Shown piece by piece: positions 1,001-58,300 of a stretch of DNA of 64,000 bases. Where the stretch lies: assembly GCF_000002075.1 (NCBI RefSeq), contig NW_004797684.1, positions 381,870 through 445,869 on the forward strand, in the 5' to 3' direction. This DNA comes from Aplysia californica (lineage: Eukaryota). A program made the position numbers and the translations under genes. Below the pieces are notes generated by a model. The model had not been told where the DNA came from, did no database searches, and saw nothing but the letters and a program-made list of their open reading frames with translations. Every line of letters starts with the position of its first letter. The first letter of the stretch is position 1.

Positions 1001-4000
1001 GTGAGTGTGTGTGTGGGTGTATGTATGATGGTGTGTTGATCCATGTGTTTATTTGAATATGTGTGTGCATGTGTCAATGTGTGTGAGTGCATGTGTGTTT
1101 TATTGGGGGGTTTGTGTGTTCGTGTATAACTCAATGAGTAATAGCAAAAAACGTATTATAAGTGACAATTCTTTGATTTCTCATGCCAGAAAAGTTCCCC
1201 TTTTATATCAGTTTGGTTTCAGTGACAGTTTTACAGCACTTGCAACACAATAAGTTCATGTAAGTGCTGAAGATTAGAGGTGTTGCAAGAGAGTAACAAA
1301 CATGAAAAAAAGGAGGAGGAGAGATCAGGATGATAGATGTTTTGGTAGTAAAGAAGAAGCAAACCATACCAGAGAACTGACCAATCACCCGCTTTTATAT
1401 TGTATGAATAACAGCTGGTATTTGCCTAAAATGCTGCATCATTGAATGTGCTTAGGGGCCAGATATGGTCGGCTGGAATATACTAGCCAGCTTAGGGAGT
1501 TATTGTGAAGCTGCGTGAGCCTTCTATCGGAGGAGACCTAGTAATGTAATGAAAACTTTTGTTTATTTTTTATTAGAATGGTGCAGAAGAAAGGAGCACA
1601 ATGCTGAAAGTAGCCTGCTTCTGTTGTGTTGTGGAATGCTTCAGCTTTTTCGCTCAAAAAACGTGAATTCGAATCACAAGTGTGAAAGTGTTTTGTTTTT
1701 AAAAAATCAAATATCTCCTCGTATTTGGTAGTAGGATATTGCATATCCCTCTCAGCTCCGGTTGGCCCCGACAGACATTGTAGAAGCAGTCCACCTCTTA
1801 GATGATCTGAATTTGATTGGGGCAATGTATAAACATTTACACATTTTTGGACAGAAAAAAACGAACTGAGAACTGATGTCGGCCTTGACAATGTCCTCAG
1901 CTTCTCGCAACTTGACTGACTGGTGGCTGGCATTCTGGGTGACACACAGCCAAGACTCCAGTCCTCTCAACTCATCTGTACCTGCTGTCATCTGGCCTGT
2001 GAGGTAACAGAGAATTTGTTCTGCCATGGAGTGATTTGTGTGATTTTGGAGTGCATTGGTCTTAAAAATGCCATTGTTATTCAGTTGTTTTAAATATTTG
2101 TTTGTTCAATATCAGTATCATGTTAATTTGTTGTATTTATTCCGTATTGCTATGGTGTTTCTTGTTTCTGATGCTTCTGTTTGTTTATTAAGATAATTGT
2201 TGTGTTCAAGAGTTGTAAAGCTTAAAATATGTGATAAAGATAGTCATGGAATTGTACAGCTGACGAGATGTATAGTACTTTCTGCTCAATACCTGTTATT
2301 GTCTATGGAATGTGCGAATTTGTGGTCTTTAGACGTAAAGGATTCAGGACAAATCTTTTGTAATTTCAGCAGGTTGTTACTTGTAGATTTTTCTCCATTT
2401 AGTTATGGGTTTTTTTCTTAGCAGTTTTGAGATTTATGACCTAAGTAGATGTTACGCGGTGTGATATTCTTCTTCTTTTTTTTTTTTTCAAAGCAGAAAG
2501 GACTTTGAATTGTGCCTAAAAAATAAAAATTTACCTACTGCTGTTTTCACATATTTCATGTTTTATTTTGTTCATAGTACTGTAAAAATTTCCCTCTTGA
2601 GCTTTCCAGCTTGTGAGAAAACATTTTACATTGATTCTGCGGTGACAATTCCATTTCAGGAATATACCTGCCCAGAATTTGTCCAGCGGCTCAGATAACC
2701 TCAACTTCTACTTGGGTATTTATGGAGGTCTTGCTGCGTGTAACTCCATCTTTACACTGATGAGAGCTTTCATGTTTGCATATGGTGGGGTCAAGGCAGC
2801 GACTGTCATTCACCAGCGTCTTCTGAAAGCCATACTGAAGGTACTGGGGAAAATTGCACTACTGGTTTGCTTAGGAATGCCAGTTGAGCATTTAAAGTCT
2901 GTCTCTGATATTGATTTGTATCTAATAGTAATTTGTGAGGGTGTTTACTCTCATCAGGTAGACTTGGAGATATGTTAAATGTACGTAATTTTAACCTATT
3001 TCAGAAAAGTGGCTTGTTGCTGGAGGTTTTTGTGTGGTCTGCTCATTTTACTTCTTTCAATATTTCTATGGTTCTTTAATGTTCCTTGTGATATGTTATT
3101 GGAAAGAAATGGAAGTAGTGCGCATCCCTGACCGTCAGATTACTACATTCATTGTTGACATTGCTGCTTGATCTCGGAAAGGCTTTGTTCTCATAATTTC
3201 TACCTTATAAGTGACCACTGTGATTATTTATCTTTGATTCATCATTTTAATGAACATTTGTTGGCCCAGTGATGTCAGCGTTGCTGTATCTAATTTAAAA
3301 AGTTAGCTTTGTTCATTTTGAAGAGATACTAAGCATTTCTCTTTAGGTCAAATATACATGGTTAAAGTTGTATTTCTCAAATGTAGTTGGTGCACCCCTC
3401 ACTCACATGTGATCATATCTCAAAAACTGTTTGAGAAATCTGAACAAAAAAATGTATTTAAAAACAAACAACCAATCATCACGAAAGATAATTCTGTGCA
3501 GAAATGCGTTAGACTAAAAATATTGAGAAATGACCCTTGTGTGCCCTTTTCCCGGACACGCACATATTTTTTCCCTTTCAAAAGTATCTTTGACTGAATT
3601 GGGGAAGAAAAACTTCTTGACAACCAATTCTCTTCAAATATTTCATGATCTTACCTCACCCCAAAATTGATTTTGTCTTGATATACAGGCTCCCATGTCA
3701 TTTTTTGACATGACCCCTGTTGGCCGGATCTTGAATAGATTTTCGTCAGACTTGTACGCAGTAGATGACGGACTACCTTTCATCCTAAACATCTTCCTGG
3801 CACAAACCTATGGCATTCTGGGTACTCTGGTGATCACCTGTTATGGCCTGCCTTGGTTTACCATCTCACTAGTCCCAATGGCTGTGATCTATTATAAAAT
3901 ACAGGTGAGTGTCAATCCCTTCCTTTTTCCTCTCTTAAGTGTAGGGCGAAGTAGAATAAAAACCTTAATCCTCTGCCAAGTGTTTGCCACCTTGTGAGAT

Positions 4001-7000
4001 GTGTGGTTGGGTGGGATGTGACTTATTTCCCATCACCATTCAGTCGATGTTTCCAGTTTATCTGCTTACTTCTTTTTACTAAATGGAAGGATTGATCACC
4101 ATGTGTGAATTGGAAGAACATGTACTTGCCAGTAGTAGATTAATGCCTATTCAGGGTGCTATGATATACTTATGATGTTAACTTTAACTAGAAGAACTGC
4201 ATGGCTTTTTAAAAATTTCAGCTACTTAAATTGGAAACACTGCGAACATAAAATTGATCTAGTAGATTGGTCTTTACAGAACTTCCTGCTTGAAAAAAAG
4301 TGACCATAACATTCCTTATTTATGCTTTTTAGTGTTTGCTGATCCTTGTAGAACATTATGGGCTTAAAATTATTTAGGGTTTTTCTTTATTCCTCTTCAA
4401 CGCAATTTTGTAATTTATTTTTAAACCCTTATTCCAGCACATTCTGTCAGTTCAATACAATAATTCCCTCAGAAATAACTCCAGTATCCAACTTGCCATG
4501 GGAATTCCGTCTGCAAGTTTCAAGTCTAAAAGTGTCAGGTTAAAGTTATATATTAGTATGTGAACCTCAACAAAACCAATAAACCGTGCATTAACGTATT
4601 TTTATTTTGAAATATAAATATTATCAAGTTCAAGGCTTACAGAGTAACATTTCTGTGTCATCCCCCCCCATCTTTTACATACAAGAGGTATTTTAATTTA
4701 TTTAGGATGAAATTTGGGTCTGATAACATTCAATAAGCATTCAGTCCTGAGCATGTGTGCATTTTATGTCAACAGCATTATTACCGTCACACATCTCGTG
4801 AGCTCAAGCGTCTATCTAGTGTGTCGCTGTCGCCGATCTATAGTCATTTCTCTGAGACCATCATTGGTTTGACCACCATCAGGGCCATGCGGCATTCTAC
4901 CAGGTTAGTGGTTTGAGTCTTTGCTGCGAGTTGGGTGTTTTGCATTTCTTTTTGTTATTTCTATCGAATTTCTTGTAAATAGTTGTGGGAAATTGTAGAG
5001 CGAAATTGAAGTATTAAAAATTTTTATGTTTTTTAGGAAAGTTGTTTTAGATTGAAAATATTTATTTACACAGAATTTGAAATATTTTAACGTTTTAAGA
5101 TCTAATGACCCGCACCCAGCTGTACAGTGAACTGCGAATAAAGCTAACTTGTGTTTCGCGCACTCATATGACCTTATGCAGTTGCGAGCACCATTAAACC
5201 CCATACTAAAAAAAAGTTTTAAATATATGCTCATATTGATGCCTCTCAATGCAATTTGGACATTTTAAGAGGTGGGTCAATCCTGTACATTTGGGCCAAC
5301 TTTGATGGTGTGGGATACAACATAGGTGGTTGGAGAGTGCTCTGGTGTGGTTTGCTCCTTCTTTCCTATCAAACATCTATTGTCCTTATCTTTCCTCCTT
5401 TTTTTTGTTTGTTACACTCTTGTAACACCTCTAATCTTTGGCACCTATGTGACCTAATTGTGTTGCAAATGCGGTAAAACACTTACTAACGATATAATTA
5501 CTTCCTTATACAGGACTAAAACTCATGTCCTATGCATTCTATTCGGAAGAGCCTTCCTATTACTCCACATCTGCTGGTCTACTGTCTGGATTGCTCTCCT
5601 GATATTTTACAATTTTTAAGTTAGTGTGCTGCTGATTAATTCGTACAAACCATTTCATGCACATTTGCTGAACATTGAGAAAGTACTTTTTTTTAAATGT
5701 CTTTTTCTTTGCTTGACACCTTTTTCTTCCTGTATGCTCAGGTTACAATTAGTTGTGTTGTTCGCTCTTGATATTGATTCGTTATTCGTGCAAACCGGTT
5801 TGTGATCACTGAGTTAAATGATTCTCTAATATCATCCGCTATAGTCCCAGTGTATATCACTGATCACCCTGAGTTGGGCACTTTGGGCACTCGTGGGTCT
5901 GCAATTCATGGCTGTGTGACCCACAAGGCCTAACGAGGGGCTGGCTATGTTGCTGTGTCAGTCCTTCACAGATTGTGACATTGTGATGTCATAAATGAGC
6001 AAATGAGTTCACCTGAACGCACTGCCAAGATCAGCGTCACTGGCTCTGCTCCCTTGCTCACTCATGTCTCAAATTAGCCGCTACTTCATAAGTGAGTAGC
6101 AAATAATGAACCTCTGGGATGTACCGATAAACCTTTGCCCACATGCAGTCTGATATAATATTTGAATAATTTAGTTTAATTGCTCGTTTATTCGTGCACA
6201 TTAGAAATGAGCGCTCATTTATTTACGAAATACAAATGTGCAGTTAAAACTCAAAACCAGTTTTTATGCATCTTTTATTTGCTTTAGGTTTTCCAAAAAT
6301 TTGGGTTTTATTTTCTGGCCTGACATCATTTTTGTTATCTTGCTTCGTGTAAATGCCCTCTAACTGATATTACAGCTTTGCTTTTCCTCACAACTTGATA
6401 GACTTTGCTAGGTTAGAGCTTTCCTGTCTTTCTGTGAGCTGTTTCCCTTAAACCATAAATGACCATTAATGTGGAGATGAGTTAGATTTTACTACTTCAT
6501 GTCCTCAACATCGTAAGTAAAAATTACTAACTCTATATGACCCTGTTTTACAAGATAAGTCAAAAGTATTTGTGAAGACCAATTTTTCTTAAAACCACAA
6601 TGTATAATTCATATTGTTGATGAGAAGAAAATGAGGAAATCTGTTTGGTCGTACTTAATGTGTTGAGGATAAAGAATTGCGAGTTACACATTTTTCTTGC
6701 GACAGCAATGATCTGTTCCGAATCAAACAAGTCTTTTCTGATTGAAAACTAATTACTATGAATTCTCTCTCTTTCGATTCTTTGTCCCTAGGTTCTGTCA
6801 GGAGAACATTGTTCGCCTTGACATGAATCAGAGGGCCCAGTACGCCACACAGTTATCGGCCCGCTGGCTCGACTTCCGACTGAGAATGCTGGGTGTTGCC
6901 ATGGTAACCTGTATCTCTTTTGTTGCTGTCATTCAGCATCAGCTGTCGTCAGTTAACTCAGGTGAATAGAACCAAAAAAAATGTTTTCCATTTACTGGCA

Positions 7001-10000
7001 GTGTTTATCAAATTCTCTTTGTGTGATGTCATGAAAGCTATGAAGGTGATGGGTTCATGTTTTTTATGTGCCTTAGAAGTCAAAGTAGCCACTATGGTTT
7101 GACATAATGATAGATACTTTTATTAACTGAAATTTATGTTGAACAAAAGGCCTATTTAAAATACTGTTTATTGCAACATGAGTCGGCTCGTAGGGTTCAG
7201 ACTATTGCTGTTATCTTAGGCAAGGTTTATTTATCTTAAGATAGTAAAAACGACAGGCAAAAAATGAGATCTGAGCCTTTGTTTAGGGTAACGATTTTGA
7301 TATATATTGTGAGGGGATAATAATATTATATTTTACTGGCATTTCTAATATATTGGTTAAGTGCTTTACCTTGCTTGAAAATGAAGTGAATTCAATCCTG
7401 ACATTCCTTCCATGATTTTTTCAGGCTCTGGACAGAATTATTTTTCCCTGTTCAGTTTTGGACCTGGGGTGCATCAATTTAATGCATTACTTTGAAGCTC
7501 TAAGTTACTTTAATATGTATTGTCATATACCAAAACTGATGGGAATCAATAGAGGAATCTGTTTATATCAATAACAATAACCTATAATCTGTTTGTATTG
7601 TATTTTCCCTCAGACAAAAACGAATGGGGAAAGAAAATTGCGCAATACCTCTTCGAAAATTTCAACTTACCACATTTTCTCAGCTCTACAAGTCCTTATA
7701 ATCCATAGGAATCAACATAAAATTGTAGCGATTTCACCCCAGGACACATTTATGCAAGAATTTCACAAATTTAGTTGACTATCTTTTTTTGAAGGGCCTT
7801 TTTATTATACCAGGCTCCCTTAGATCTAGCCTACTTAGCGACAACAAAACGAACGATTTTTGCAAGAATTTCACGGAGTTTCAATCGATATTGGCACTCA
7901 GAGATTGAGGTCAGGCTTGTTTACAAGTTCTGCTTCCTTTCGACAACTTTAAAAGTAGGAACTATGTTTAAAAGTGCACATTTGTTTTGGATTTCGCTCG
8001 CATTTCGTTGAGCCGCTCACAGCAGTCGAATGGAGGCTGCGGAATAGAGCTGGATCCTGCTCACCAAATCTAAAAGTGGCGATTCGCGATTCAGTCGGCT
8101 TCAAAGAATCGCGAGCGCTCGCGGAACTGCGGTGGAACACTGACTGAAACAGAACAGTGTCATATCAACGCCACTTGGCGAGCGCGAGTCCCACTCTTGT
8201 TGTCCCACCGCCCCCCCCCCCCCACCCTTCGTTTTGCTGCTCTATCTACTGACCTCAGTTAGCAACTCCATAAATTCACCCGCCCCACCCTATGATTCGC
8301 TAAAACAATGGCTCCCTAAAATTCCTTCTGTGGATTATTTGGAACTTGTTCATTTTGTTTTAATAGGGGGGTTGGACTATTCCATCTTTTGTTATATAAG
8401 GGGAGCCATACTAAGTGTTCTGTTCCGTTCTTGCACTCGGGACTCAACTCAGCTGTAGGTTACAAACAAGCTGCAAGCAAGGTGGTGACATCTACAGGGG
8501 AGTGAATCGGACGGCGATACTGTTCCGTGTTCCGCTGAAGTGAATCGCAAATCAAGTGCCGCAGGGAAGAGCGGCGTTTCAGTTCCATTCTCGCACTCGC
8601 GACCCAGCTCTACTATGGAAAACCTCAGAGTCGCTGTCAGCGGCTGAATGGATGGAATCAGTTAAGATATTTTCAGTGCCTTTCCACTGATAAGTATCAT
8701 TCCATTGACTATGACAGGCAATTGCGAAGCAGTCTGCTTCCTTAATGACCTAAGTTGTATTGATGAAGCAGTGAAACATTTGCAAAAAAGGATCTTCATT
8801 TATTTTTCTGGGTATTTTGGGACAATTTTTTGTTTCTCATTCTTGCCTTTTATTTGATTATTCCCCAGGTCTTGTTGGACTGGCCATTTCGTATGCGCTG
8901 GCAGTGACGAACTTGTTGGGGGGCGTTGTCATGTTCTTCACGGAGACGGAGAAAGAATTTGTCAGTGTGGAGAGGTGTCAGCAGTACATCGTAGAGACTC
9001 CAGTGGAGAAGTGGAATGGAACCTTGTTTGTGAGTGTGTATGTTTTGTTGAATAGTTTTAAAAAACCAACTGACATCTGAAGTGTAGCGGTTAAGCTCTT
9101 TGCCTTTTCACAGAGAAGATAGTGGGTGGTTGGCAGGTGCTTTGGTGTGGTTTGCTTCTTCTTTTCTATCAAACATCTATCGTCTTTATCTCCCCTTTCT
9201 TCTTTTTTATGTTTGTTACTCTCTTGTAACACCTTTAATCTTCTGGCGCTCATATGCCCTTATGCAGTTGCGAGCGCCGTAAAACCTCTACATAAAAAAC
9301 CCCCAGAGAAGATATGAGTTCAATTATCTAGTGTGGAGGGGTTTTTTTGTTGGTTTTCTTTTTTTAGCGAGTATCTCCATCAGTATGCAATGATGTCGTA
9401 TCCCTGGCAGCCCAGGTCAGCCATGACAGGCACAATCAAATCAGGTTATAAGACCATGGCAGATAAGCAGTGCACCACAACACCAGAGACAGGGACCTTT
9501 TTGTTTTGACGTAAATAATAATAAAATAATAGATAAAAAGCATTTGTATAGCGCAAATCCTGCTCAACAGCAAGCTCTATGCGCTTCGCATTCTATACTA
9601 TTACCCCAGCAGACCTGAGAGGATTCTGAAGCAACCTCAACTTCCTGGAAAGCACACAGTGCAAGCAGCCATTTATTGGTGCTATAACACTAACATACTG
9701 ACAAGATCTTTTGCTTAGGAAAATTTGTGTAAAGTGCCTAACCCAAGGACACAACTTGGGCCCCCAGCTCGATCCCCCCGAACCCGCTACCTCATGATTA
9801 CGAGTCCGGTAGCCTAACCGCTAGGCCACCGACGCCACATGTGATCTTTTAAGATAAAAATCAATGGGTTTAGGGTAGATGAATATTTAGGGACAGGAGA
9901 TGCAACACTTCTAATGGTGAAACATCATGTCTGAACATCTACTATAATATACTTCTATGTGAGCACTCTCCTGTCTTAATGCAATTAGATAGAATAAGAT

Positions 10001-10019
10001 TAACTATGTGCTTTCACCA

Positions 10020-10095
<76 letters not shown>

Positions 10096-13000: not shown

Positions 13001-14663
13001 GTCTCCGCTACAACAACTCACAGGCCAGGGTTCTCAACGGCGTTTCCTTTAAGACAGAGCCAGGAGAAAAGGTTGGTATTGTTGGGCGTACGGGTGCCGG
13101 AAAGTCAAGCCTCTTCCTGTCGCTCTTCCGTCTGGCAGAGCTGAGTCAAGGTCGCATCATCGTTGATGATATAGTCATCAGCATGCTGGATTTGAATGAT
13201 ATAAGGTATGTGGATTCTGTGAATTATTGATTAAATTTAAATGTGCATGAATTTTAGTTTCAGTTTTTCACCCTTTTTAACACATTTTGAATTTTTTCAG
13301 GGGCATAACTTTAATATGAGCACCTTGTTTTAATTTTGATAAGGATAAAAAGAGGACTGGGAAACTTTAATTTGTTTACTCAAGGGTCAAGGGTATCATT
13401 TCCAGTGTCTTTTCAGCTGAAACTTGAGAAAGTTGCAGGGAGAAAGAGCTTAGATCTTGATTTGTGAGTTCATACTTATAGTGAAATTGCCAATGCACAT
13501 TATTCATGTGTAGTAGAGGAACAGTGGCTTTAGCCCATTTAGATGTATTGGAAGGACAGTTGCATAATATAAAATGTAGGGGAAGAACAGTGGTTGTAAG
13601 TGTTTTATGTCCCCATTGCCACAATGTAGAGAATTCAGGACCATTACAAAGACGGGAGGCGTGGACTCTTGACTGTCAGGGCCAACCGGGGCTGAATGAA
13701 ATACAGCATGCCAGCAAAAAAGATAGAGTTGAGATACTTGATAAAGTACTTCCGCACTTGGTGGTCAAATTCGAATCTATGCGTACAATGATGTTGAAGA
13801 GCCTAATCATTGCATTTTCTGACAGACATTGATATATTATGTAATAGATGGACAGTTATGTTGAACGTGGATAGTGTTTAGCATGTTATTGTAGACTCAT
13901 AGGTGACGTTTCTACTCTCAGGTCCAAGTTTGCCATAATCCCGCAAGACCCGTTCCTGTTCAGTGGCACCATCCGGCTCAACCTTGACCCTACCAGCGTC
14001 CACAGCGATTCCGATCTGTGGGCAGTCCTTGACCGCTGCCATCTGAGCAGCTGCGTAGACAGGATGGGTGGCCTGGAGGCAAAGCTTACTCAGCGCGGCC
14101 GAGAGTTTTCTGTGGGCCAGAGGCAACTGCTGTGCCTAGCTCGTGCTCTGCTCTCTCGGGCTAAGGTCAGGGCTTTTATAAGTTGTGGGGGGGGGGGGGG
14201 GAGAAAGAGATGGGGAAAGTCAGGAGGAGGAGGGGAAGAGAAAGCGGGCAGGGCGAGGAAGAGATACGAGGGAAAGAGAAAGAAAGAGAGGTTTGTATTA
14301 GAAAGAGTTTTACGACACTTGCAACACAATTAGATCATCTAAGTGCCGAAGATTAGAGGTATTACAAGAGAGTTACAGACACAAAAAAGAAAAAAGAGAG
14401 GTAACCATGATAGATAAGAGGGGTCCCATTCTTTATTTAAACTCAGAATGGATACTAGGCTGTCACCCAATCATTAGGGAAAAGCAATAAATGTACAAAA
14501 AATTATTGCAAGTAAGAAGAAGGAATTAAATTTATGCAATACTGTTGTTGTTTTCTTGTTTCCTTTTTGCTGACTACTTTGAATGCTATAATTTCAAGCA
14601 AAAATCTGAAAGTCAGTGGCACCACCGAATTATTGGATGATGATTTAGATATCACATGCGCGG

Positions 14664-14725
<62 letters not shown>

Positions 14726-15414: not shown

Positions 15415-15509
15415 TGTGTTCAGACGTTTTGTTCGTAATCAATGGACAAAATGACAACATTTTTATTTGCTCCATGGGATGAATTTTTACGACCTTATGA
15501 ACTCTTTAG

Positions 15510-15690
15510 GTGGGTTGTTGGCGGGTGCTCTGGTGTGGTTTGCGCCTTTTTTTCCTGTCAAACATCTGTTGTCTTTACCTCTCTTCCTCCTTTTTTGTGT
15601 TTGTTGCTCTCGTGTAACACCTCTAATCTTTGGCATTTGCAGGACTTTATTGTGTTGCAAGTGCCATAAAACTCTTTTTAAACTAAACTA
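15510..15690 (+). mobile_element. Short retroposon family A copy in the ABCC10 3' UTR
   Basis: Consensus match, starting about 95 nt after the stop codon. Confidence 0.8.
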
Positions 15691-16414
15691 GAAAGGACAT
15701 AACTAGTGGAGTTTTTTTTTTGTAAATGGCAGGAATGTGTCTTCTCTCTAGGGCTATGTTTAATAACAGTAAATTCTTATTCTTTTACTTTCATTTCCTT
15801 CATTGTTGCATAATTTGATTCGGACTACTGGGTAGAGGATATGACACTTGGTACTGTGACCACTAAAGTGTTAATTTCTCATCTATGATAATAAAGTCAT
15901 GGATCTTCTCAAGGTGTTATTCAACAGTACCAATACTGCTGACATTTGAGTGGGTGGATCCAAGTACAATTTTACCCTTCTGGGAACCGAACCTATGCCT
16001 GAGCATGCAGGAATATAAATGTAGCAGTTGACCCAAAGGTTTTGTAGGCTCAGGGGACCAAAGAGTTAGGGCCAGAGATTGTCACATTTAGACGACAGTC
16101 CAGGGGTAAAAAATCAGGCCTGAGCCAGCCTCAGTCAACACGACGAAGGAGTTGAAAAGCTTTTCACTTTTGTTTTCTCTCTGCGATGTGCAGAAGAAAT
16201 CGCGATGTTGTCTTTGGGTCTCCTGGAAGTAAGACTTCAAAGAGTTTTGTTAATCTGTTGTCTCTTGCCAATGTCTTGAACCTGTGATCACTAGTCCGGT
16301 CTATATTATATAATGTTTCACACAAAGGCAGATCTCTCTGCTTACTTGATTCAAGAGTTTCTTTGTCACTCGTCAATGGTTTTGTTCAAAGGACTCGTAT
16401 TCAACAATTTTAAT

Positions 16415-16600
16415 GTGGGTGGGTGGCAGGTGCTATGGTGTGGTTTGTTACTTCTTTCCTATCAAACATCTATCGTCTTTATCTCTCCTTCTACTTTTCT
16501 TTGTATGTTACTCTCTAGTAACAACTCGTAATTGTCAGCGCTTATGTTTATATGACCTATTTATGTTGCAGGTGCCATGAACCTCTTACTAAAACTTAAC
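16415..16600 (+). mobile_element. Short retroposon family A copy
   Basis: Consensus match. Confidence 0.8.
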
Positions 16601-18034
16601 TAACAGTTTTGTTAGAATCAACTTTTCCAATTACATGATGCACAGAATAATCATCTCAATGTCTAACATTTTTTTTAACATCTACATCCTACAATTGTTT
16701 ATAACACAAGTTGTACTGATTTTTTTCTTTTACCTTTAGACGAAGGCACAAAAGTGATATTCTTTTTTCCTCTCCCCTGTTAAAAAAAAAGATTTTCCAG
16801 CTTGCAGTCAATCTGTATTCTTGGTACTACATGCCTTTGTGGGTTTTTTCCCCTCTGTCTTTCTCCACAGACCTTCAAATGGGTAACCTGGAGCTGGATC
16901 CTTGATCTTAACACTTTTTTACTTAGAATTGATGTTTTTCTCTCTCCACAACACATAAACGATGATGCTAAACTGAAACACTGAAAAATTTTTAGTAAAA
17001 AATTCTTCCAGTTGCAGGATTTATTCCTGCAAATGTTGCTTTTTTTTTAAAGGGCAATCCATGGGGAAGACACCTGAAAAATCACTGATCTGGTGATAAA
17101 ATTTATGAAGAACACTGTCATGAAAAGTTTTAACCCTACACCTATGAAATTTTTACTGCATAATGTTTCCATAAATATCCCGGTACTGACAAAGGCATTT
17201 GGCTTGAAAAATTATAAATAATTTAGGGGAAAAAATATACAGCGGATAAAATGTTTTGCTTTTACCATTAAAAAAAACAATGCATAAAAACCACTGAAAC
17301 TGAAAACTGGCTCTGAGCATAGCTACCTCTCATTAAGTGACATGATATTCCTACATGTCACTGATGCACATTATCTGATCTCATTGCTCATTCCATCTTT
17401 GTGTTGCTTTGGCACTTAAAACACACATAGCTACCTCTTCCGTATTCTTTTGGAACTGAGCTTCAACAAACTTGTGAGCCTTACTTTTAATAAATTTGTT
17501 GTCCGTCTTGGAAGGAGTGCAGATTTCGAAATGCATTTATTTAGAAGCCAGTCAAAATTTTAAAAAGTAGTACAGTTATTAGTGTTATGTTGCTTGAGCA
17601 GCGAAAAAGTCAATTTTTGGAACTGCAGTACATTATTGTTTGAAAATTATCCCCGAATATTGAAGTCAAATTTATGTTAAAATCTATTAAAATTTATTTC
17701 TGGTTGTATCAATGTCTGTACATGATGTACTTAACCCTTTATTTTCACTTTGGTTTTGTGATATACTTTTTGGTACATAGTAAGGATGTTTCAATTTCTG
17801 TGGAAGTTGCTCTAATGAAAAAGTTTTCTTTTATACTTTTTATGATTTAAAGTACTGGTCTTACAGATTTTACAGGGTTTACAACGGAACATTATTGTCC
17901 ATCAGAAAAGTGAGTTTGCAATACAAGGAGAAGTAGAACTGCAGTACAATTGTTTCTACAAAGCTAGCTGTCCCCGAATAACACATAGAGTTCAGTTCAA
18001 TGTGTATGAGGCTCTTCTACAATCACCCATTCTA

Positions 18035-18283: not shown

Positions 18284-20341
18284 TATGGTGAATGTTTCAA
18301 GACTGCAATAGCGAAACATTTACTCCTCTTGTCATCGCTATTGAAAGTCTTGGACTCTTGTTTATGATTTAGGACTATTGTCATAAATTGTGCTGTGAAT
18401 CGTTCTCTCCTTTTTTTTTTCATTGTCTTATGTTCAGAATATACATCTTTTTTATCATCTCTATAATTGTTCCTGTTTGCTGCTGAACAGCATCTTTATT
18501 AAATGGGGTTTTGCAATGTATTAAGTATTTTTATTTTGCTTAGGTTATGATATATGATGATTGTGCACAGAATTGTCCCTGAGCATGCAGAGTCAAAGAA
18601 GAAGATCATTTTTAAAATGATCCAGGTTGTTTTGATGTCGATGGAAAGCATTTACAATCATATTCAGACAGGAAGTGCCAATATTTTCAGTAACAGGACT
18701 ATGTCAAACCAATTGCTGGAATTAGATACTTTACATTCTTGGGAGTTGTTAAGAATGAACCTAAAGAGAAAGAAATGATCACAGGTTGCCAGATTACATG
18801 TCTGTGATTACTGTTATTGCCATATTTTGTGTTGTGTAATATATGAATCTCTAATTTTGCATGTAACTGTTTAGTCTCCCATGTTCTTTGATCACGTGGA
18901 TATGATGTTGGGTAGTCCAAATATTACCTAACACTTTTTCTTGTGATTACCACTTATGTTTTGTATGTATTTTGCTTGGAACATTTCATCAGCAATGTTG
19001 CTTGTTCACTGAGTATACCCAATAGTCACATTAAGCTGTGTGTATGACGGTGTCAACGAGTTCCTTGTTTTTGTGCAATATAACACCAAAGACACCTCTG
19101 CTTAGATGTTTTGCATTATATGAATGCTGAAAAACATAAGAAATCATTTGCTTTTTGTGCTGCATTATAAAATGCTTAATACTAAGTAAAAGTATATTTT
19201 GCATGCAAAAAAAATCAAGTAACATATTTTCTCTTGTTGCCATAAAATATTTATTCTGCACTTGGTACACTCACTCATATTTATAGTGAGATAACATTTA
19301 TATATGCTTGTATTATTGATGTCTGTGTATGGTAGAATATTTCTGCCGTATGGTTTTTAACATCATTGATACCATTGACAAGTCTGTATTCAGAAGAGGT
19401 CAGAGACTGTATTACTTCTATTATGTGGTCAGCAAAAAGGCACCTCTTGGATGCCCATAAGATGCTTATCCTAGCAAATTGATCCCATCTACCTGGAGAT
19501 CAAATCTAAGGAATTCTTTAGGGGGGAAAAGCCTAATTTGTTTCTGGACCACTTGTATGGGAGCAAGAAATTGAACTGGATACTTTGTAGTGAGAGAGAG
19601 AAAAATAGAACACGTACTGGGCAGAATTGTTTCAGCACATAACACGTGTATTTATGTCCCTTTCTTGCATGTATGCATGAGTGCACGCTGCCATTGTAAA
19701 CGACCTAGACAAATTTCTCCCTGAGAGATGCATAAAGATTGTCATTGTATTTGTCTTTGCCAAGCATTAAACGTCTTGACGCGTGATTGTTTTGTCATTG
19801 TAAGCGTTTAATAAGAAATAAGTCAGTGCAACAGTGAGCATTTTATTCATACATAGATAGTCTCTCCCTTTCTTGTTTTCAAAAGAGGATAATTTTTTTT
19901 TAACTTAAAGCTCAGTCAATGTGACTCCAGTGGTGAAATTAAATCTGTCAACAATTTCCCTGAAATTCCTACAGGCAACATTCAACATGACTACATTCTA
20001 TAATGTTTATTCTTTGTTCCTTGCTCTTTCTATCAGCTCTTATCTATGTACAGGTGGAATCTTTGAGGAAAGGGTAATCTCCAAAGCAAACATTTAAAAC
20101 TTCCATTAACTACAGACTCAGAAATACGGTGATCTGTAACATATTAATTCAGTGTTGTAGATACCTGTCAGAAGCAGAACAGAGGTATCTGTGGTGTAGT
20201 GTTTGGTGTTTCACAGTAGCATGCAGATCACCTAAGTTCGATTCTGGTGTCATGAAAGTTTTTATCGAGTATCTCTGTCTTTTTTTGCTAGAATGTTGTA
20301 TCCCTCTCAGCACAGGTTCCCTGGCATGCAAAGTTGAAGCC

Positions 20342-20707
20342 ACCCCACGGGGTGGTGCTACTGATTGAAGTGTCTTTAGGCCATTCCCAAAGGGGGGACA
20401 TTAACCATGTTTGTAATTGTAAATGGGCTGATTAATCTATGTCATGCTCATAACTGTGCCTGAAATGCAACAGGGAACTACTGCTTTTTCTTTCCTAATC
20501 CTTACTATCGTCATTTTTCCTCTACTTCTTTTGTACGTTTGTCACACTCTTGTGACCCGTTTTTTACGGGGTGCCTCGATAGTCGAAGCAAGAGAGGTGA
20601 GCAGAGTAAGCCTGATTCCCTGAAAGGACTTCTCTGTTGACATCCACCCTTTGGCGCTCATATGACCTTATGCAGTTGCGAGCACTGTAAAACCTCTACT
20701 AAAACTA
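20342..20707 (+). mobile_element. Short retroposon family B copy
   Basis: TSD AAAGTTGAAGCC (20330-20341 / 20708-20719); shared tail. Confidence 0.85.
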
Positions 20708-22612
20708 AAAGTTGAAGCCGGCGTTTTAAATAATCTAAATTGTGTCAATCCTGGGGTAAGTCACTAACAAAAGTAACATTTGTATTTCTAAAGAGGCTTG
20801 AGCCAAGCTCTGTAGGTCTGCAAGTGTATCTGATTTATGCTTATTTCCTCATATGTGTTTGTTTTGTTATGGGTTGATTTTCGCACTGCTCAACATTGTT
20901 GAAGAATTAATTTGTTACCTGTTGATTTATTGGAATATTAAGTAGATGTTGATTATATCTCTTTCTTAATCCTGACTCAGCACAATCACTTTCCACCTTT
21001 ATATTCCTGAAGGATAATGAACATCAGCAGTCATCTTAAATACATGAATATGTAGTGGAATAACATAAGTGACAGCATATTTTTTATAGGATAAAATATT
21101 TGGGATGATCAATTTCTTGTTCATCCTTATTTGTTGCTGCTCATTTTTTTTTTTATCCACAATGCTATCTTGTCGTATCATCTATGTATATGTTACCTCT
21201 TTATTTTGCAAAAGATTAAGATGAGTATGCAGAAAATAAAAACAGTATTGGCAGTTAATTCTTTTTTTTTTTTTATAGATCTGTATGGGTTTGTTTTTTT
21301 TAATCACGATACTAGATTCAAATGCTGAATCATACCTTTTTAATATTTCTTTTTGAATTTCATAATTGCAGTGGCAAATAGGCATGGATGGACAAAGTAG
21401 TGTCTTGGATAAATGAACTTTTGTTTACTTTTTTACTCTTTGCCTGAATGTTGTCGAATGTGATGAGTCTTGTGGACACTTCACGTACATGTGGCGCAGT
21501 ACGGATGGTGGTCTCAGGCTTCACTTTGCTATCCGTGCCTGTTTGGAGTTTTGATGGTGCTGTTTAGTATTTGAAAAGTAAGAAATTTAATGGTACTGTT
21601 TTGTATGGGAAGTTACTTGTTACATTATTCTCAAAGCAGCTTTAAAGTGCAAAGACACAGCATTTTAACATATGTTATGATGAGCTGTGTATTTTGTTGC
21701 TTTTTATTTTAATAATCTGTATTCCCCTCCACACATTATGTCCCTCCATTTGGGAATAGATAGTTTATTTATTTTGGTGACGCTCTCTTCTTTGCATAAT
21801 TTACCCAAGTTGCCTCAATAGATTATTTCTGTAGGAAACACTTTTTGCTGATATTTAACCCTTTTTACTGTTAAGAATTACGGTAGAATTTTGATTAGAA
21901 GTGCATAATCAAAATATGTATTATAATAACAAGAAGTTTAAAGTGGGTGTCTTTACATCTTCCAACTGCTTTTATAACTACTATAAATTTATACTGTTGT
22001 GTTCATATACACAATATCATACTGAGTGGTGTTTTCACTGCTAGAATTGATTTATATAGAAAACACTTAGGTCCTTATTTTTTGTTTTGTCAATATGTGT
22101 GGACGACATCTTGATCTCTTCAGTTTAAGACCAGCAGAGTCTTTACTTCTTTATGTTTTGGCTTTACTTTTTTTTTTTTTTTGGGGGGAGGGGGGGTTTA
22201 TAATTCTCCCCTGTCATTTTGTTGAATATCTTCTGGATGATGTTGTCAGTTGCTTTGTTTACTGCTGGCCAATGGTAAATCATGTATCGTTTGTTGGAAA
22301 ATTTTCGAGGGTCTTCCGTGGATAACTGGGTTTTACAAGCATGTCCAAGTATGTCCTGATGGGAATATATCTTTTTCTACAAAAGGGATAAGTTGGAGAA
22401 GCATTTTGTTATAACTGGCAGGGAAAATGGTAGAGGTTCCATATTACTTTTTTTGTTGTATGTTTCAGTATATAGCACTGTAGCTTATAACAGGTGTGTT
22501 TTTATACTTACCTATATTTGTGTTTTGTAATTATGACATGATAACGATTTAACACACCTTAACCACAATATGGTTTGAAAGAAGACGGGATGTCCAATTT
22601 TACATCTGCCTC

Positions 22613-22890
22613 CATATGTGTCGGAACGAGGTGGAATCAGGCGCGTGTCAATTTTTGGGCATATCGAGTTATTAGTATCAACTGAAAATTAAATTTTTTG
22701 TGTCTTTAATCAACGTTTAAAAAAAAAAGTAAAATCCACACAGAAATGTGGGTTTTTTTTACATGTACATAAAACATGTTGAGCTAAAAAGTTGTTTTTT
22801 TTTAATGACCAAAACTGGAGGGAAAATGCCGGTATCTTTAATTTCATTATTTTGGCGAGCACCTAATTTTACCACGATGCCTCACATATA
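22613..22890. mobile_element. MITE with ATAT flanks (second copy at 38477-38918 in the opposite orientation)
   Basis: Shared GGTGGAATCAGGC..GTCAATTTT.GGGCAT end; imperfect TIRs. Confidence 0.65.
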
Positions 22891-26800: not shown

Positions 26801-26940
26801 TAAGATGACATGGAGGCGAGCGGTACAAGCGGAAATTGAAAAAGCGGGGACATCATGGAAACAGATAGAAAATGATGCTCAGGACAGGATTCGCTAGAGT
26901 AATGCTGTTGATGGCCTGTGCTCCACTGGGAGTTAAAAAG

Positions 26941-26942: not shown

Positions 26943-26987
<45 letters not shown>

Positions 26988-27003
26988 AGAAAGAGAGAGA
27001 GAG
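26943..27003. repeat. (GA)n microsatellite at the RTE 3' end
   Basis: Read directly from the sequence. Confidence 0.95.
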
Positions 27004-27296: not shown

Positions 27297-27710
27297 AAGT
27301 TCTTTTTAGTATTAGTAGAGTTTCTACGGCGCTCGTAACTGCATAAGATCATAGGAGCGCCAACGAGTGGATGAAAGGGAATCAGGCTTACTCTGCTCAC
27401 CTCTCTAGCTTCAATAGCACAAAGTCTGCTTCCACTATCAAGGCACCCCGAAAACAGCAGGTCACAAGAGTGTGACAAACATGCAAAAGGAGTAGAGGAA
27501 AATGACGGTAGTTAGGATTAAGAAAGAAAAAGCGGCAGTTCCCTGTTGCAGTTCAGGCGCAGTTATGAGCATGCCATTGATGAATCCGCCCATTTTTACG
27601 ATTAACAATTCTACTGTGATTAAGAACATGTTATTGTAAATCCCCCCCCCCCCCCCCCCCTTTGGGAATGGCGTAAAGACTCTTCAGTCAATAGCACCAC
27701 TCCAGGGGTG
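27297..27710 (-). mobile_element. Short retroposon family B copy
   Basis: TSD AAACAGCAGCTTT (27284-27296 / 27711-27723). Confidence 0.85.
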
Positions 27711-28157: not shown

Positions 28158-28315
28158 GTGGGTGGTTAGCGGAGAACCGTGATGTGGTTTATTCCTCATT
28201 TCCTATCATAATTAAGCGTTTACTCTCCTGTAAGCTTACTACCCACAATCTTCGGCACTTATATGGCTTAACTGTGTTGCAAATGCTGTGAAAACCTCAC
28301 TACAACGAACAAAAA
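28158..28315 (+). mobile_element. Short retroposon family A copy (diverged)
   Basis: Diverged consensus match. Confidence 0.65.
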
Positions 28316-28384
28316 CAATGGCCAGGATGTCAAAGCACATCCTATTTTGTCTTACGAGCCTGGGCTTAAGGAGATTTTAGGATA

Positions 28385-29035: not shown

Positions 29036-29220
29036 GAGTGGTTGGCGGGTGCTCTGGTGTGGTTTGCCCTTTCTTTCCTATCAAACATCTGTCGTCGTCC
29101 TTATCTCTCCTTCGTCTTTCTTTGTGTTTGTTACTCTCTTGTAACACCTCCAATCTTCAGCCTTTATATGACCTTATTGTGTTGCAAGTGCCGTCGTAAA
29201 ACTCTTACTAAAACTTTAAA
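29036..29220 (+). mobile_element. Short retroposon family A copy
   Basis: Consensus match. Confidence 0.8.
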
Positions 29221-35358: not shown

Positions 35359-36692
35359 TTATTTATGCATTGTTTGTGTGAAAGAAGGCTTCTGATGGGA
35401 GGTACAAGATTTATGCAACAGGCTAGGCTTGGTCCGGGGTGCAAGTATGATCAATGGTCTCTTGGAATAGAAAAGATTAGGTTCATTGCCACTTCATTGA
35501 ATCTGAGTTCGCTTATATAATGTGTTCCTCAAATTCGAGTTATTTTGTTGATTTTAATTGATACAAAAATGTCTCCTTTTTGTTGAATCTGAGTTTGTTG
35601 AATCCGAGTTCAACTGTATTCATATTTTACAGTTCCTTCAAAATTAGAGATTTTGTGATTTGTTTATTTTCGTCATTTCAGATGCCGAAGTTTTCATTAG
35701 TTTTCTGGTAAAATTCTGTTAAAAGTGGTGTATAAATTATTAAAATCTGGTATGGTGCACGTCTGATAATCGATAATTCACTTGGTTGCCAAAATCAGCT
35801 GATTTGAGGATGCACACTTGATGCAAGTGAATCTAGGTTTAATCACTGCTTGTGCTGTTGATTTGGAAATCATGTATGGAGGGCATGATCCGATTTGAAA
35901 CTTCAATCCTGACATAGGCTTTTTACTACCAGTGTGAGTCTCCTCCCTGTACATATACCCCTTCCTATAAGTCTATGGACTCTCACTGTCTATTGTACTT
36001 CAATCACAGCTACCAACTGGGAGTTTATTGGTTATAGGATAGTTAAAACAGACATTCAATCCTACACTTTTTGCTCATCTGAGCATCCAGACCTGTTTCT
36101 AATTAATATGTCTTTTGTCCCACTTTGCTGGGTGGATGTGGATTTTTTAAAGAGCATAAAATTATCAGTATCTAATAGAAGAGCTGGCAGTGTAATGAAC
36201 TATAATGGGGTTTCAGTGTCTTCTCTGTTAAATAGTACTGCTACCTTACACAAACGTTAAGGAAAATGATTCTGCTATGGCTAGATTTCGGATAATATTA
36301 TTAAGTGTTATTTCCCTTTGTCCAAAATTTGATGAAGTGTCCTTCAGGCTTTCCAATGTGACGATCGCTAGTCATGTGGGATAAGAAATTAGAAAAAGAG
36401 ATTACCACCGTGCAGCTGCTGAGTGGGTGCCATGTGTAGTATTTTCTGCCTCTCCAATTCACTGATGTGTTGTCGGGCAAATTTACAGGACTAGTTTAGT
36501 TTCAGGCAGTCGAGGTATGGTGGTTTAAAGTTTGAATTAAAGGGGGAAACAGTGTTTATATAGGTGACCCTTTTGTGCCTTGACTTTCCTGGCGGTATAA
36601 TGGGGGTGGGTGTAATGGAGTTTGACTGTAGTTCTCTGTGCTTAACCATGTATTCTTTTGATGGCCTTGCAGATATAACTACCGAACACAGA

Positions 36693-37088
36693 ATGTTTAA
36701 TTGGAATCCCCAAATGAGAGGGGCTGGCTTCCCCATGCCACCCCAGCAGATGATGCATGTCGCCCAAGGGCAAATGGCACTAGGGCAGCAGGTACCGTTT
36801 CAACAACAACAGCAACAAGCGCAGCAGCAACAACAACAACAGCAGCAGCAGCAGCATTGGCAATTTGCCAACATGGGTATGATGATGGGCCACCAGTGGC
36901 CACAGCAGCAGCATAACCAGGCCATGTTTCCTCAAGGCATGATGCAACAACACCATCCGGGAATGCATGGAGCTGCGGCCATGATGGTTCACGGACATCC
37001 GGTTCCGCCCACCCACCCACCCCCTGAGGAAAAACCACCGCTGCCTGCAGAACCCCCTCCTCCGCTTCCTAGCACACCAGCAGACCAG
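36693..37088 (+). CDS. YLPM1: YLPM1-like first coding exon (Q/M/P-rich)
   Basis: Acceptor ttgcag| at 36672; ATG at 36693; polyQ; ends at GC donor CAG|gcaaga in phase 0. Confidence 0.75.
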
Positions 37089-55310: not shown

Positions 55311-55341
<31 letters not shown>

Positions 55342-58300
55342 GTGGATGTGTGTGTGTGTTTGTGTGCACGTGTGAGTATGTGCATGTTCATGCCCTCAGC
55401 TCAAATGGACAGATGGTACATTGACGTTCTGATACAGACAACGCTTAATCCTTTTCTAAATTACTTTTGCCCTTGTTAGATGTCGAGGTGCCTCATTGTA
55501 ATTTGCAATGCAACATCCAACTCTCTAACAAGATTTTTTTTAAAAATGGTGTATACACTGTGTTGAGGATAACTCGATGCCTCTTGGGTTTCAGAATAAA
55601 GAATCAAGGATAGAGAACTGTTCTGTACAGTGGACTTAACAATCATATTATAAATGTCGGCCTGTTCTTTCTATCATTTGCGGTTTTTAGGTGTACGTTG
55701 GAGAACTGAAAGCTGACATTTCTACATGTATACAGCGCAATATCCACAAGTGGACAGAGTGGGACATTGAGAAGGTTTGTGCTGAGAAACCAAACTGAAG
55801 TGTAGGATTATCAATGTTGGGTTGAATGGCTGGATTTGTACTTGAGCTGATGTTTTTGTCGGGGGTTTTTTCCCGGCTGATTAAAAATGTTGTTAGTTCT
55901 TTGTTGGAAGTGAGATCTGTACTAAGCATGCTTTTGTTTTCTATTGTTTGTTATGTGGTTTTGACTATGTGGGTGGTTGGCGGGTGCTCTGGTGTGGTTT
56001 GCACCATCTTTCCTGTCAAACATCTGTCGTCCTTATCTCTCCTCCTCCTTTTCTTTGTATGTTACTATCCAGTTGCAACACCTCTAATCTTTAACTTTTA
56101 TATTACCTATTTGTGTTGCAAGTGCTGTAAAATTCTTACTAAAACATGAACTAAGTTTAACAATTTACTTTCATGGGTAGTTGGGGGATGTTACTGGTAG
56201 GTCGTTTATTATTCCTCTGTTATATCTGTCTGTCTTGTCTGTTTTGCTTTTTCCCAGCACCAAGTGACTATTAGCATGCCGATGTGCTACTTTTTGCTCA
56301 ACTAGAGCGAAGTAAAACTTTATTTACTTTGTCTTTGAAGACAGGAGGTCTGATTGAATAGAAAGCTAACGGTTGGTTGGTGAGCACTATGGTGTGATCT
56401 GGTTTGCTGTGAAGTGTAGTTGATGAAATGTGGCCGTTGACTCAGTGGTAAAGTGATGAGCTGCAGTGTGAAAGCACTGACTGTAAATTTTAGCTGAACT
56501 TTTGTGTTTTTCAGGAAGAAACCGACTATCTTTGTTTGGTCTGTTTTTCGGGCAGCCACTGACTATCCTTGTTTGTTCCAGGTGAAGTCTCAATGGGAAC
56601 CGCTGCCCAGCCATTACATCCGCCTGGACTTGAGGTGGTTGCTGCAAGAGGATTCTATCCCTGAGGTAGCTCTGAGTCTCAGCTTGTTGATTTGTATACT
56701 GATAGTCTGGATCATTAGTTTCTTTGAGTTAACGCGTTGAACCCTTACTATTTTTAGCCAGCTCATTGCCCTAGCCTTGTCATTTTGCGATAATAATTAT
56801 CATTATTCTAAAAGTTCAAATGTAATGAACCAATACAGGCTAGGGATTGAGAACTGGCACAGTTCTATACCTCTTCAGAATCTTCAAAACAAATCAGACT
56901 TTGTTTTTAAGTTTAATATCTGTTTTTTTTTATACTGTTTGAAAAGTTCATCTTGATTTCATATTCTAGAAAAGACCAAAGGATTGTAACGCGAAGACTG
57001 AGTTCAGATTCACAGATATCATTGCTAAGATCCATAAAAATGACATTAGTATAATGTGGGAATTGGCTTCTTATGTGGTTCTTTGGTAGGAAAAGTCGTT
57101 GTGATGATAGTTGCTGTGTGCTGGCTTTACAGCCATATTGTGAAAAACTTGTCTGTCAATATATTCCCAATAATGACTGAGGTCAGGATTAGGCAAAAAG
57201 ACCCATGTCCCAATATCACTCAGGAACGAGGTTCAGTGAGATAAACGCTCTGCCTGCATGTGCAGATGTCTTTTTTGGAGGCGGATTCTACCCTTAAGGG
57301 AATGTCCAGCTTGTTGGTGAATTTGATTGTTTGCTTTGTGAATTTCTTTTTGTCAAATACTCTTCTTATATAAATCCCGTACCGTAGATGGTTTGAGGGT
57401 GCCATAGGTAGGTCTTTCTTGGCTTATCTTCTGTTGTTTCTTTCTGTCTGTCCTTCATAACATCAACATCGAATGGGTAGTTTGTAATATCCACAAGGCT
57501 TTGCACCCATCTTATCGGCTTTGTTTAACTTGAGATAAAGTTCAATTTCGGAGGTCTGGCCTCGTAGATAACTTAACAACAGTGCTCAATGACATACCTT
57601 GATTAATTGTTCTATTTTTCCTCTTAGGTTGTCATGGAGGATACAGAGCCGGAAGAAAAAGACGAAAAGAAAGAAAAAGAAGAGAAAGACGATGAGGAGG
57701 AGGAGGAGGATGCTGGCTTTGGAGGGGTACAGTTGTCTTTTGTTGTGGATTTGTGGGCAAATTGTTTAATTTTTACATTTGACTTCCTAAGAAACAGTCT
57801 GGCACTATCTCCTCTGTTATCTCTTGTATAAGCCTGCTGTGTGTATGTTTGGAAGTGGTTTGGGGTATCATTTTTAACACTTTGCGGTCACTTGGCGCAA
57901 TAATGCGACAGTGAAAATTATCCGTTCCAGTCACCTGGTGCACTGCGCCAGGCCAGAGAAGCCCTTTGTAGTCACTCTCCTGGCTGGGTGACCAGATGGG
58001 ATATTTTGTACTGCTGTCTGTGTGACTGCAAAGTGTTAAGTAGTTCTTTCCAGTTGCTCTCATTGCTATGTGCCTTTTTAGTGACTGTGTACTGATGGAG
58101 ACAGGAAAAAGCTAGAGAGAGAACAGCATAAGTTGCATATTTTTAAAACTGTGATAAAATAGATTGTAAAGTGCAGAGAGCTTGCTGTTGAGCAGGAATT
58201 TGCCCCATACAAATGCTATATATTATTATATTATGGTGATGTTAAACTTTCATTCATCACTGGAATAATAATGATAAACCGTATTTTAGAAGTCGGTGTT

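What the first reader, a model, noticed from the sequence alone, without database searches (positions are those of the whole stretch)
1209..56152. One covarying 3' stem-loop tail shared by about 17 short retroposons of at least three unrelated body types
Seen: 11 family A copies, 4 family B copies, the tRNA SINE at 45173 and a fragment at about 5100-5215 all end in the same motif followed by GTAAAAC (ATTAAAC in the fragment) and an A-rich run. Two versions occur: GGCGCTC-ATATGACCTTATGCAGTTGC-GAGCGCC (e.g. about 49027; 9245 differs by one loop base) and a GGCACTT...AAGTGYC stem (14292 and 42490 on the minus strand; 15632 similar). The copy at 1209 has a perfect CAGCACTT...AAGTGCTG stem. The stem therefore shows paired G-C/A-U substitutions that keep it closed. 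Known: stringent LINE reverse transcriptases recognise a 3' stem-loop that partner SINEs copy. Inference: this is a community of non-autonomous elements exploiting one LINE, possibly I/Nimb-type judging by the ATGACCT-loop tail. Neither LINE in this window carries this tail, so the partner is elsewhere.
Basis: partly seen in the sequence, partly recalled or inferred. Interest (0 to 1): 0.75.

Follow-up and report, generated by a model that had tools for sequence, protein, structure and literature searches.

The report
Sea-hare SINEs sharing a LINE tail
Seventeen short mobile-element copies in a sea-hare gene region end in the same RNA hairpin, which other molluscs' SINEs borrow from a Nimb-type LINE, so this is a real but familiar kind of hitch-hiking, with a clear local case of one family swapping its tail.

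Summary
The shared tail is real: 17 copies, an 8-bp stem with a 20-nt loop starting ATATGACC, then TAAAAC and A-rich repeats. The host is Aplysia. Three corrections. (1) Families A and B are not unrelated: they share a ~75-nt core with a second hairpin, so only two unrelated body types are shown: A/B and a tRNA-headed Nin-domain SINE. (2) Covariation reduces to two base pairs that differ between two master tails, v1 and v2. The 'perfect stem' at 1209 is probably CpG decay. (3) Exact GTAAAAC follows 11 of 17 copies. The I/Nimb guess is supported from print: a razor-clam Nimb LINE and its partner SINEs end in the same architecture. The partner LINE was not found here. New locally: body and tail trees disagree, so family A probably replaced its old tail with the younger one used by B and the SINE. 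A and B have fixed 5' ends but no Pol III boxes. Several SINE types sharing a Nimb tail is published; Repbase/Dfam could not be checked. New member of a known kind.

The parts
1212..1392 (-). Family A copy, old (v2) tail; 9-bp target-site duplication; outer stem pair closed, probably by CpG decay
5100..5215 (+). Fragment F: ~55 nt unrelated to the A, B or SINE bodies plus a v1-type tail closest to the SINE's; weak 10-bp duplication; AATAAA at position 38
5322..5489 (+). Family A copy, v2 tail
9121..9300 (+). Family A copy, young (v1) tail; 11-bp target-site duplication
14292..14412 (-). Family A copy, 5'-truncated, v2 tail
15509..15690 (+). Family A copy, v2 tail, starting about 100 nt after the last ABCC10 coding match
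16414..16603 (+). Family A copy, v2 tail with a 6-nt insertion in the stem region
20341..20712 (+). Family B copy, v1 tail; 12-bp target-site duplication; 5' hairpin head; A-related core and second hairpin at 20541-20556
27300..27710 (-). Family B copy, v1 tail; 13-bp target-site duplication
28158..28312 (+). Family A copy, diverged and internally deleted, v2 tail
29036..29216 (+). Family A copy, v2 tail
42486..43031 (-). Family A copy with v2 tail, split in two (43031-42976 and 42592-42486) by the B insertion
42605..42965 (-). Family B copy, v1 tail, inserted inside the A copy with an 11-bp duplication (1 mismatch)
43192..43586 (+). Family B copy, v1 tail
45173..45692 (+). tRNA-headed SINE: head 45173-45245 with A and B boxes, pyrimidine-rich spacer, Nin/Deu-type domain around 45480-45545, v1-type tail; ~12-bp duplication
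48904..49088 (+). Family A copy, young (v1) tail; 13-bp target-site duplication
49026..49067 (+). Reference tail: 8-bp stem 49026-49033 with 49054-49061, 20-nt loop, then TAAAAC
55968..56154 (+). Family A copy, v2 tail

Best explanation
These are non-autonomous retroposons of Aplysia copied in trans by an I-superfamily LINE, most likely of the Nimb clade. Each RNA ends in a copy of that LINE's 3' signal: an 8-bp stem, a loop with ATATGACC, TAAAAC and short A-rich repeats. The LINE protein would bind it and prime reverse transcription at a nick, leaving 9-13-bp duplications. Shown: the shared tail, its fold, the duplications, fixed 5' ends, A/B kinship, and two master tails differing by two compensated pairs. 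Inferred: binding by a Nimb protein; that v1 is the younger signal; that family A replaced v2 with v1 by a template switch at the stem's 5' edge; that A and B, which lack Pol III boxes and hold T runs, are transcribed by Pol II or by read-through, while the Nin SINE uses Pol III.
For: 17 of 17 copies fit one model. Stem cells pair at 87.7% versus 26-59% when slid. Same architecture in a bivalve Nimb LINE 3' end and in SINEs assigned to Nimb partners (by eye). A relaxed pattern over bacterial genome contigs gave 58 hits; the 3 with the best stems (7 of 8 pairs) are copies of one ~430-nt dispersed repeat with a different stem sequence and the same fold. Mosaicism: on the shared core, A (both tails) splits from B at 100/100, while on the tail the two young A copies join B, the SINE and F at 99/98. 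Young A differs from old A at 10 of 51 tail columns but 4 of 123 body columns (Fisher p 0.0008). v1 tails are closer to their consensus than v2 (0.08 versus 0.14, p 0.036), and a v1 B copy sits inside a v2 A copy. All four stem-arm differences between the masters fall in two complementary pairs (1 in 28 by position alone). No paired A/B boxes in 9 of 9 A and 4 of 4 B copies scanned, but present in the SINE.
Against: No LINE ending in this tail was found: none in the window and no RT match in 58 of 58 fetched loci. The literature match is by eye, not scored. The Aplysia-trained model scores the three outside copies only 17.8-20.2 bits (E 0.18-0.68), with a chance hit ranked among them. Covariation rests on one branch; pairs changed on both sides are not above shuffles. 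Only 7 of 17 single tails fold significantly. The swap rests on two young A copies, and the body-only tree of A is unresolved.
Confidence: 0.8

Rival explanations
1. A and B are internally deleted (bipartite) derivatives of the Nimb LINE itself: a LINE 5'-UTR piece that supplies the promoter, joined to the LINE 3' end.
For: Fixed 5' ends, no Pol III boxes, T runs. B begins with a C-run and a ~57-nt hairpin. LP-SINEs with Nimb 5'-UTR heads are known in molluscs and also begin with a C-run followed by a CT-rich region. This rival is compatible with the best explanation and concerns only where the bodies came from.
Against: B and A heads show no similarity to the LP-like head in L049 (z at most 0.7). 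Bipartite elements are reported only for RTE, Ingi, Vingi and R2. A's first ~40 nt resemble a V-domain motif instead.
Confidence: 0.3
2. Family A is a V-SINE (RUDI/BivaV-SINE1 type) that lost its tRNA head and kept a worn Vhc motif, the pyrimidine core and the Nimb tail.
For: A 13-nt Vhc motif from the published alignments matches 5 A copies at the same position with 2-3 mismatches (9 matches in the window, 3.7 expected). It is preceded by the same GGTGGTT as in BivaV-SINE1 (by eye). BivaV-SINE1 uses Nimb tails whose loop is nearly identical to v2.
Against: Post hoc comparison in G/T-rich sequence; the A copies are not independent; no full alignment was scored. B shares the core but not this segment. 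Loss of the promoter leaves transcription unexplained.
Confidence: 0.3
3. A, B or F are ordinary 5'-truncated copies of one LINE's 3' UTR.
For: A and B share a core. F has unique sequence with AATAAA upstream of the tail and only a weak duplication, so F could be a truncated LINE end.
Against: 10 of 11 A and 4 of 4 B copies start at the same place. A and B differ on both sides of the core. F's tail groups with the SINE's at 95/93.
Confidence: 0.08
4. The paired substitutions are not selected: CpG deamination on the two arms of a hairpin produces apparent compensation.
For: The window is CpG-depleted (0.53). The outer pair and one diagnostic pair are CG/CG sites, and v1 copies show both matching and clashing decay there. 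This does explain the 1209 and 15632 stems.
Against: The inner pair is U-A in 9 and C-G in 8 copies with none broken, and is not a CpG site. All 9 v2 copies carry TG on the 3' arm, so that change was fixed in the master. Outside tails keep the fold with other stems.
Confidence: 0.12

Closest known systems
Mollusc SINEs with Nimb-type tails: BivaV-SINE1, BivaV-SINE3, BivaMeta-SINE1, BivaMD-SINE1, HalSINE1, LitSINE1 (PMC4824008) and their Nimb partners (PMC11481361)
   Same: Different bodies share one 3' tail. The BivaV-SINE1 and S. constricta Nimb ends show stem, ATGACC loop, stem, TAAAAC and A-rich repeats.
   Different: The host is a heterobranch. Stem sequences differ. Two of the families lack a tRNA head. 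The partner LINE is not identified here.
Nin-DC SINEs, including Aca-Nin-DC-SINE of Aplysia californica (cited in PMC4758252 and PMC5804259; the original paper was not seen)
   Same: The 45173 SINE has a tRNA head related to the local CORE SINE head (z 6.9), as reported for Aca-Nin-DC-SINE. It shares an exact 16-mer with Lsa_Nin_1 and an 11-mer with Nla_Nin.
   Different: Identity with Aca-Nin-DC-SINE could not be checked. The Littorina and Nucella Nin SINEs have other tails.
LP-SINEs (LINE-promoter SINEs; PMC4758252)
   Same: Short, duplication-flanked, tRNA-less elements that share a tail with tRNA SINEs.
   Different: A and B heads do not match the LP-like head tested, and there is no AATAAA before the tail.
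Bipartite non-autonomous LINEs (RIME, NARTc, Bov-A, Vingi derivatives; PMC5786205)
   Same: Fixed 5' end, no small-RNA head, LINE 3' end.
   Different: A LINE origin of the 5' part is not shown, and the type is not reported for Nimb in that paper.

Membership tests
LINE-mobilised non-autonomous retroposon | Dispersed short non-coding copies flanked by variable target-site duplications | tested here: met
   7 of 17 clear (9-13 bp), 4 weak, 6 none
LINE-mobilised non-autonomous retroposon | Common 3' end with hairpin and terminal short repeats | tested here: met
Nimb-partnered SINEs | 3' end homologous to a Nimb LINE 3' end | tested here: inconclusive
   By-eye match to the S. constricta Nimb end; not scored
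Nimb-partnered SINEs | A same-genome Nimb LINE carrying the tail | not testable with these tools
   No eukaryotic genome search; none in the window or in 58 loci. One Nimbus entry in column 'Ac' of Table 1, PMC11203168 (Ac read by me as A. californica)
Nimb-partnered SINEs | Trans-mobilisation dependent on the stem-loop | not testable with these tools
   Needs a retrotransposition assay
tRNA SINE (element at 45173) | tRNA-like head with A and B boxes | tested here: met
   Rfam tRNA 24 bits, E 0.079, below the gathering score; boxes at 11 and 55
Nin-DC SINE (element at 45173) | Nin/Deu central domain | tested here: met
   Exact 16-mer and 11-mer shared with published Nin SINEs; the whole domain was not aligned
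tRNA SINE (families A, B) | Pol III head with paired A and B boxes | tested here: not met
   0 of 9 A and 0 of 4 B copies; B head versus SINE head at best 34 of 500 shuffles as high
LP-SINE (families A, B) | 5' ~70 nt homologous to the Nimb-17 5' UTR | tested here: inconclusive
   No match to the LP-like head of L049; Nimb-17 itself was not available
Bipartite non-autonomous LINE (families A, B) | 5' part derived from the partner LINE's 5' end | not testable with these tools
   Partner LINE sequence not at hand
V-SINE (family A) | Vhc subdomain | tested here: inconclusive
   13-mer with 2-3 mismatches in 5 copies; post hoc
5'-truncated LINE copies | Staggered 5' ends | tested here: not met
   10 of 11 A and 4 of 4 B share a 5' end

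The most novel reading that the evidence does not exclude
A and B are a promoter-box-less class of Nimb-dependent elements, either the first bipartite Nimb derivatives or headless V-SINEs. They need a second upstream hairpin as well as the tail, and they stay mobile by recapturing each new version of the LINE's recognition hairpin. The v2-to-v1 switch, with its two compensated pairs and three loop changes, would then be a datable record of LINE protein-RNA specificity changing, and directly testable in cells.
Probability: 0.2. Interest if true: 0.55.

Novelty: new member of a known kind. Interest (0 to 1): 0.3.

Why it matters
For annotation: these copies make up about 6.5% of the window and sit in or beside host genes of a neuroscience model animal. 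The tail model would collect the whole guild and lead to its LINE. For transposon biology: shared tails and tail exchange are established ideas, but this is a compact natural pair of recognition hairpins (v1, v2) on nearly the same body. That suits a specificity assay for a clade for which I found no description of the 3' structure: 'stem-loop' and 'stem loop' do not occur in the main text of PMC11481361, and stem-loop figures in the PMC4824008 passages seen concern CR1 and L2 tails.

Tried and rejected
Rfam at gathering score: 0 hits in the window. At loose E-values only the tRNA head is meaningful; there is no ribozyme match in 42400-46000 or in L020/L049/L056. ARAGORN default: 0 genes; the lowered threshold gave noise. 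A strict tail pattern in genome contigs gave 0 hits; the relaxed one gave 58, of which 55 look like chance. Ideas tested and dropped: B head as a worn tRNA head; A or B related to the L049 repeat; homology of the 30 nt before the tail in A and B (at best 28 of 500) (all); F as a clear truncated copy of the SINE (547 of 1000 shuffles as high). One search used a mis-registered structure and is superseded. The bacterial promoter scan is not relevant. The clade of the window's RT/RNase H LINE was not resolved. The atlas gave no usable hit for the 860-aa ORF. Paper searches found no description of families A or B; the 18-nt loop string occurs in 0 papers. Unchecked: Repbase, Dfam, SINEBase, the Aplysia genome, viral and metagenome contig collections, the FASTA library of PMC11481361, the figures of all papers, and bioRxiv supplements; any of these may already hold these families.
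Full report
Setting. The window is animal DNA with assembly gaps (797 N, 39.8% GC). Ten exons between 748 and 15411 match the Aplysia californica ABCC10/MRP7 protein P0126 at 90-100% identity, three of them at 100%, so the host is A. californica or a very close relative. It holds two broken LINEs. One has RT, RNase H and a zinc-binding motif at about 10109-12511 and ends in CAA repeats at a gap. The other has an endonuclease and DUF6451 at 23970-26897 and ends in GA repeats at a gap; calling it RTE-like is my recall.

The observation. Fuzzy search and BLAST found 17 tail copies. A covariance model of them found no more: 17 hits at 56.6-81.3 bits, then 13.8 (the 17 match by construction). The tail is an 8-bp stem, a 20-nt loop beginning ATATGACC with a weak inner helix, then TAAAAC and A-rich repeats. 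Standard pairs fill 87.7% of cells against 26-59% in slid controls. Individually, 7 of 17 tails fold at z of -2 or lower; the two majority tails fold at -12.5 and -14.4 kcal/mol. Seven of 17 copies have clear target-site duplications: six with the v1 tail (11-13 bp) and one with v2 (9 bp).

Body types. Family A is ~180 nt and family B ~370-410 nt. With tails removed they still align over a ~75-nt pyrimidine-rich core in 29 of 32 tested pairs (8 of 11 A copies; the truncated, deleted and split copies were left out). Its central pair is U-A in 9 A copies and C-G in 4 of 4 B copies, with 84.5% of cells paired (14 copies); one slid control also reaches 77.6%, so this hairpin is less secure. The element at 45173 is unrelated in body (1 of 12 comparisons above chance). 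It has a tRNA-like head with both boxes that is related to the head of a CORE SINE at 9521-9842. It shares exact 16- and 11-mers with published Nin SINEs, so it is probably the described Aca-Nin-DC-SINE or a relative. The fragment at 5100 has ~55 unique bases; its tail groups with the SINE's (95/93), but its upstream part does not align significantly. Two unrelated body types are therefore shown and a third is possible. 10 of 11 A and 4 of 4 B copies share their 5' ends. None of 13 scanned A/B copies has paired Pol III boxes, and 8 of 13 hold runs of five or more T.

Covariation. Three of 12 pairs change on both sides. The inner pair is U-A in all 9 v2 and C-G in all 8 v1 copies. A second pair is A-U in v2 and G-C in v1, with noise. 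The third, which gives the 'perfect' 1209 stem, is a CG/CG site where v2 copies carry CA, TG, CG and other states in mixed combinations. With CpG at 0.53 of expectation, independent decay on both arms closes such a pair about half the time (inference). The evidence inside the window is thus one branch with two compensated pairs (1 in 28 by position). The cell-based scores exceed shuffles (0-2 of 500), but those ignore relatedness; the pair count does not (340 of 500).

Tail exchange. On the shared core, all A copies separate from B (100/100; the two branches sum to about 0.6 changes per column). On the tail, A9115 and A48898 sit with B, the SINE and F (99/98), and A48898 has zero branch length. 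The two young A copies differ from eight old ones at 10 of 51 tail columns and 4 of 123 body columns (p 0.0008), with a one-base insertion right at the stem's 5' edge. v1 looks younger: lower divergence (0.08 versus 0.14; p 0.036), cleaner duplications, and a v1 B copy nested in a v2 A copy. The simplest reading is a template switch that gave A the current tail. The direction is inferred, rests on two copies, and the A body tree alone is unresolved.

Outside evidence. Supplementary Fig. 1 of PMC11481361 aligns BivaV-SINE1_RuDe with an S. constricta Nimb LINE; both end in stem, TATGACC loop, stem and TAAAAC. The BivaV-SINE1 alignments in the PMC4824008 supplement and scallop MESC SINEs in the PMC4758252 supplement show the same layout with other stems, and one loop is nearly identical to v2. 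These comparisons are by eye. A relaxed pattern over bacterial genome contigs gave 58 loci. The 3 with 7 of 8 stem pairs (L020, L049, L056) are copies of one ~430-nt dispersed repeat that looks like animal DNA binned with a bacterium (inference). It folds the same way and has, by eye, an LP-SINE-like head. The Aplysia model ranks them among its top 4 of 5 hits but not significantly. No RT lies in any of the 58 loci. Nimb and Ingi are said to be the only I-superfamily clades in molluscs, apart from one unknown octopus clade.

Mechanism. Stringent LINE proteins recognise a 3' stem-loop that SINEs borrow. I give 0.8 to these 17 copies being passengers of an Aplysia I-group LINE, most likely Nimb, through this hairpin. 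The steps shown and inferred are listed in Best explanation. The origin of the A/B bodies is open between a LINE-UTR derivative (0.3) and a headless V-SINE (0.3 for A).

Comparison and novelty. Several SINE superfamilies sharing a Nimb-type tail, tRNA-less elements sharing tails with tRNA SINEs, and tail exchange are all in print. I found no description of A or B in ten library searches. But Aplysia SINEs named CALSINE exist in Repbase, which I could not search. What I saw of each paper: PMC4758252 abstract, passages, sections 9, 10, 11 (part 1), 12, 13 and parts of supplement 4; PMC4824008 passages and supplement parts 1-2; PMC11481361 passages, section 13, supplementary file 4 and hits in others; PMC5786205, PMC3747384, PMC5804259, PMC11203168, PMC10294476 passages only; Piskurek and Jackson 2011 not seen. 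No figures were seen.

Verdict. New member of a known kind, interest 0.3; the tail swap in family A is the part worth following.

Noticed in passing
window 748-15411 (+): Ten exons of ABCC10/MRP7 matching the A. californica protein at 90-100%; five tail copies and the RT/RNase H LINE lie in its introns.
   Followed up: yes
window 9521-9842 (-) and 58151-58234: A second SINE type: tRNA head with both boxes, a CCTTGGG CORE motif and a different tail, probably Aca_CORE_1/CALSINE3-like with an L2 partner.
   Followed up: partly
window 10109-12511 (+): 5'-truncated I-superfamily LINE (RT, RNase H, zinc motif) with in-frame stops; the stop codon runs straight into CAA repeats and a gap, so no 3' UTR is seen. 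Ingi or Nimb not resolved.
   Followed up: partly
window 23970-26943 (+): Decayed LINE with endonuclease and DUF6451, ending in GA repeats; a B copy lies just beyond the gap.
   Followed up: no
window 36564-37136, 39921-42503, 49647-50516 (+): Large low-complexity open frames (Q/P-rich, RGG-rich 860 aa, RD-rich), probably exons of one nuclear RNA-binding protein gene, YLPM1-like by my recall; no Pfam or atlas hit. The RGG frame ends at the split A copy.
   Followed up: partly
window 20341-20400, 43192-43250, 27650-27710: Family B starts with a C-run that pairs with a G-run ~50 nt later, closing a long hairpin; not more stable than shuffles and no Rfam ribozyme match. The G-run is expanded to about 20 G in the 27300 copy.
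   Followed up: partly
window 22611-22788 with 38577-38921; 28404-28750; 31319-31629; 37149-37401; 50718-51065: Other two-copy repeats, direct and inverted, unrelated to the tail families.
   Followed up: no
L049 1660-2115, L020, L056: Three contigs of two Sedimenticola genome bins carry a ~430-nt animal-like repeat with an LP-SINE-like head, the Nimb-type tail and CAAAT repeats; likely host DNA in the bins.
   Followed up: partly
window 16530-16545: The 5' arm of this v2 copy has the v1-type G at one diagnostic pair (a G-U wobble) next to a short insertion; a possible intermediate, single case.
   Followed up: no
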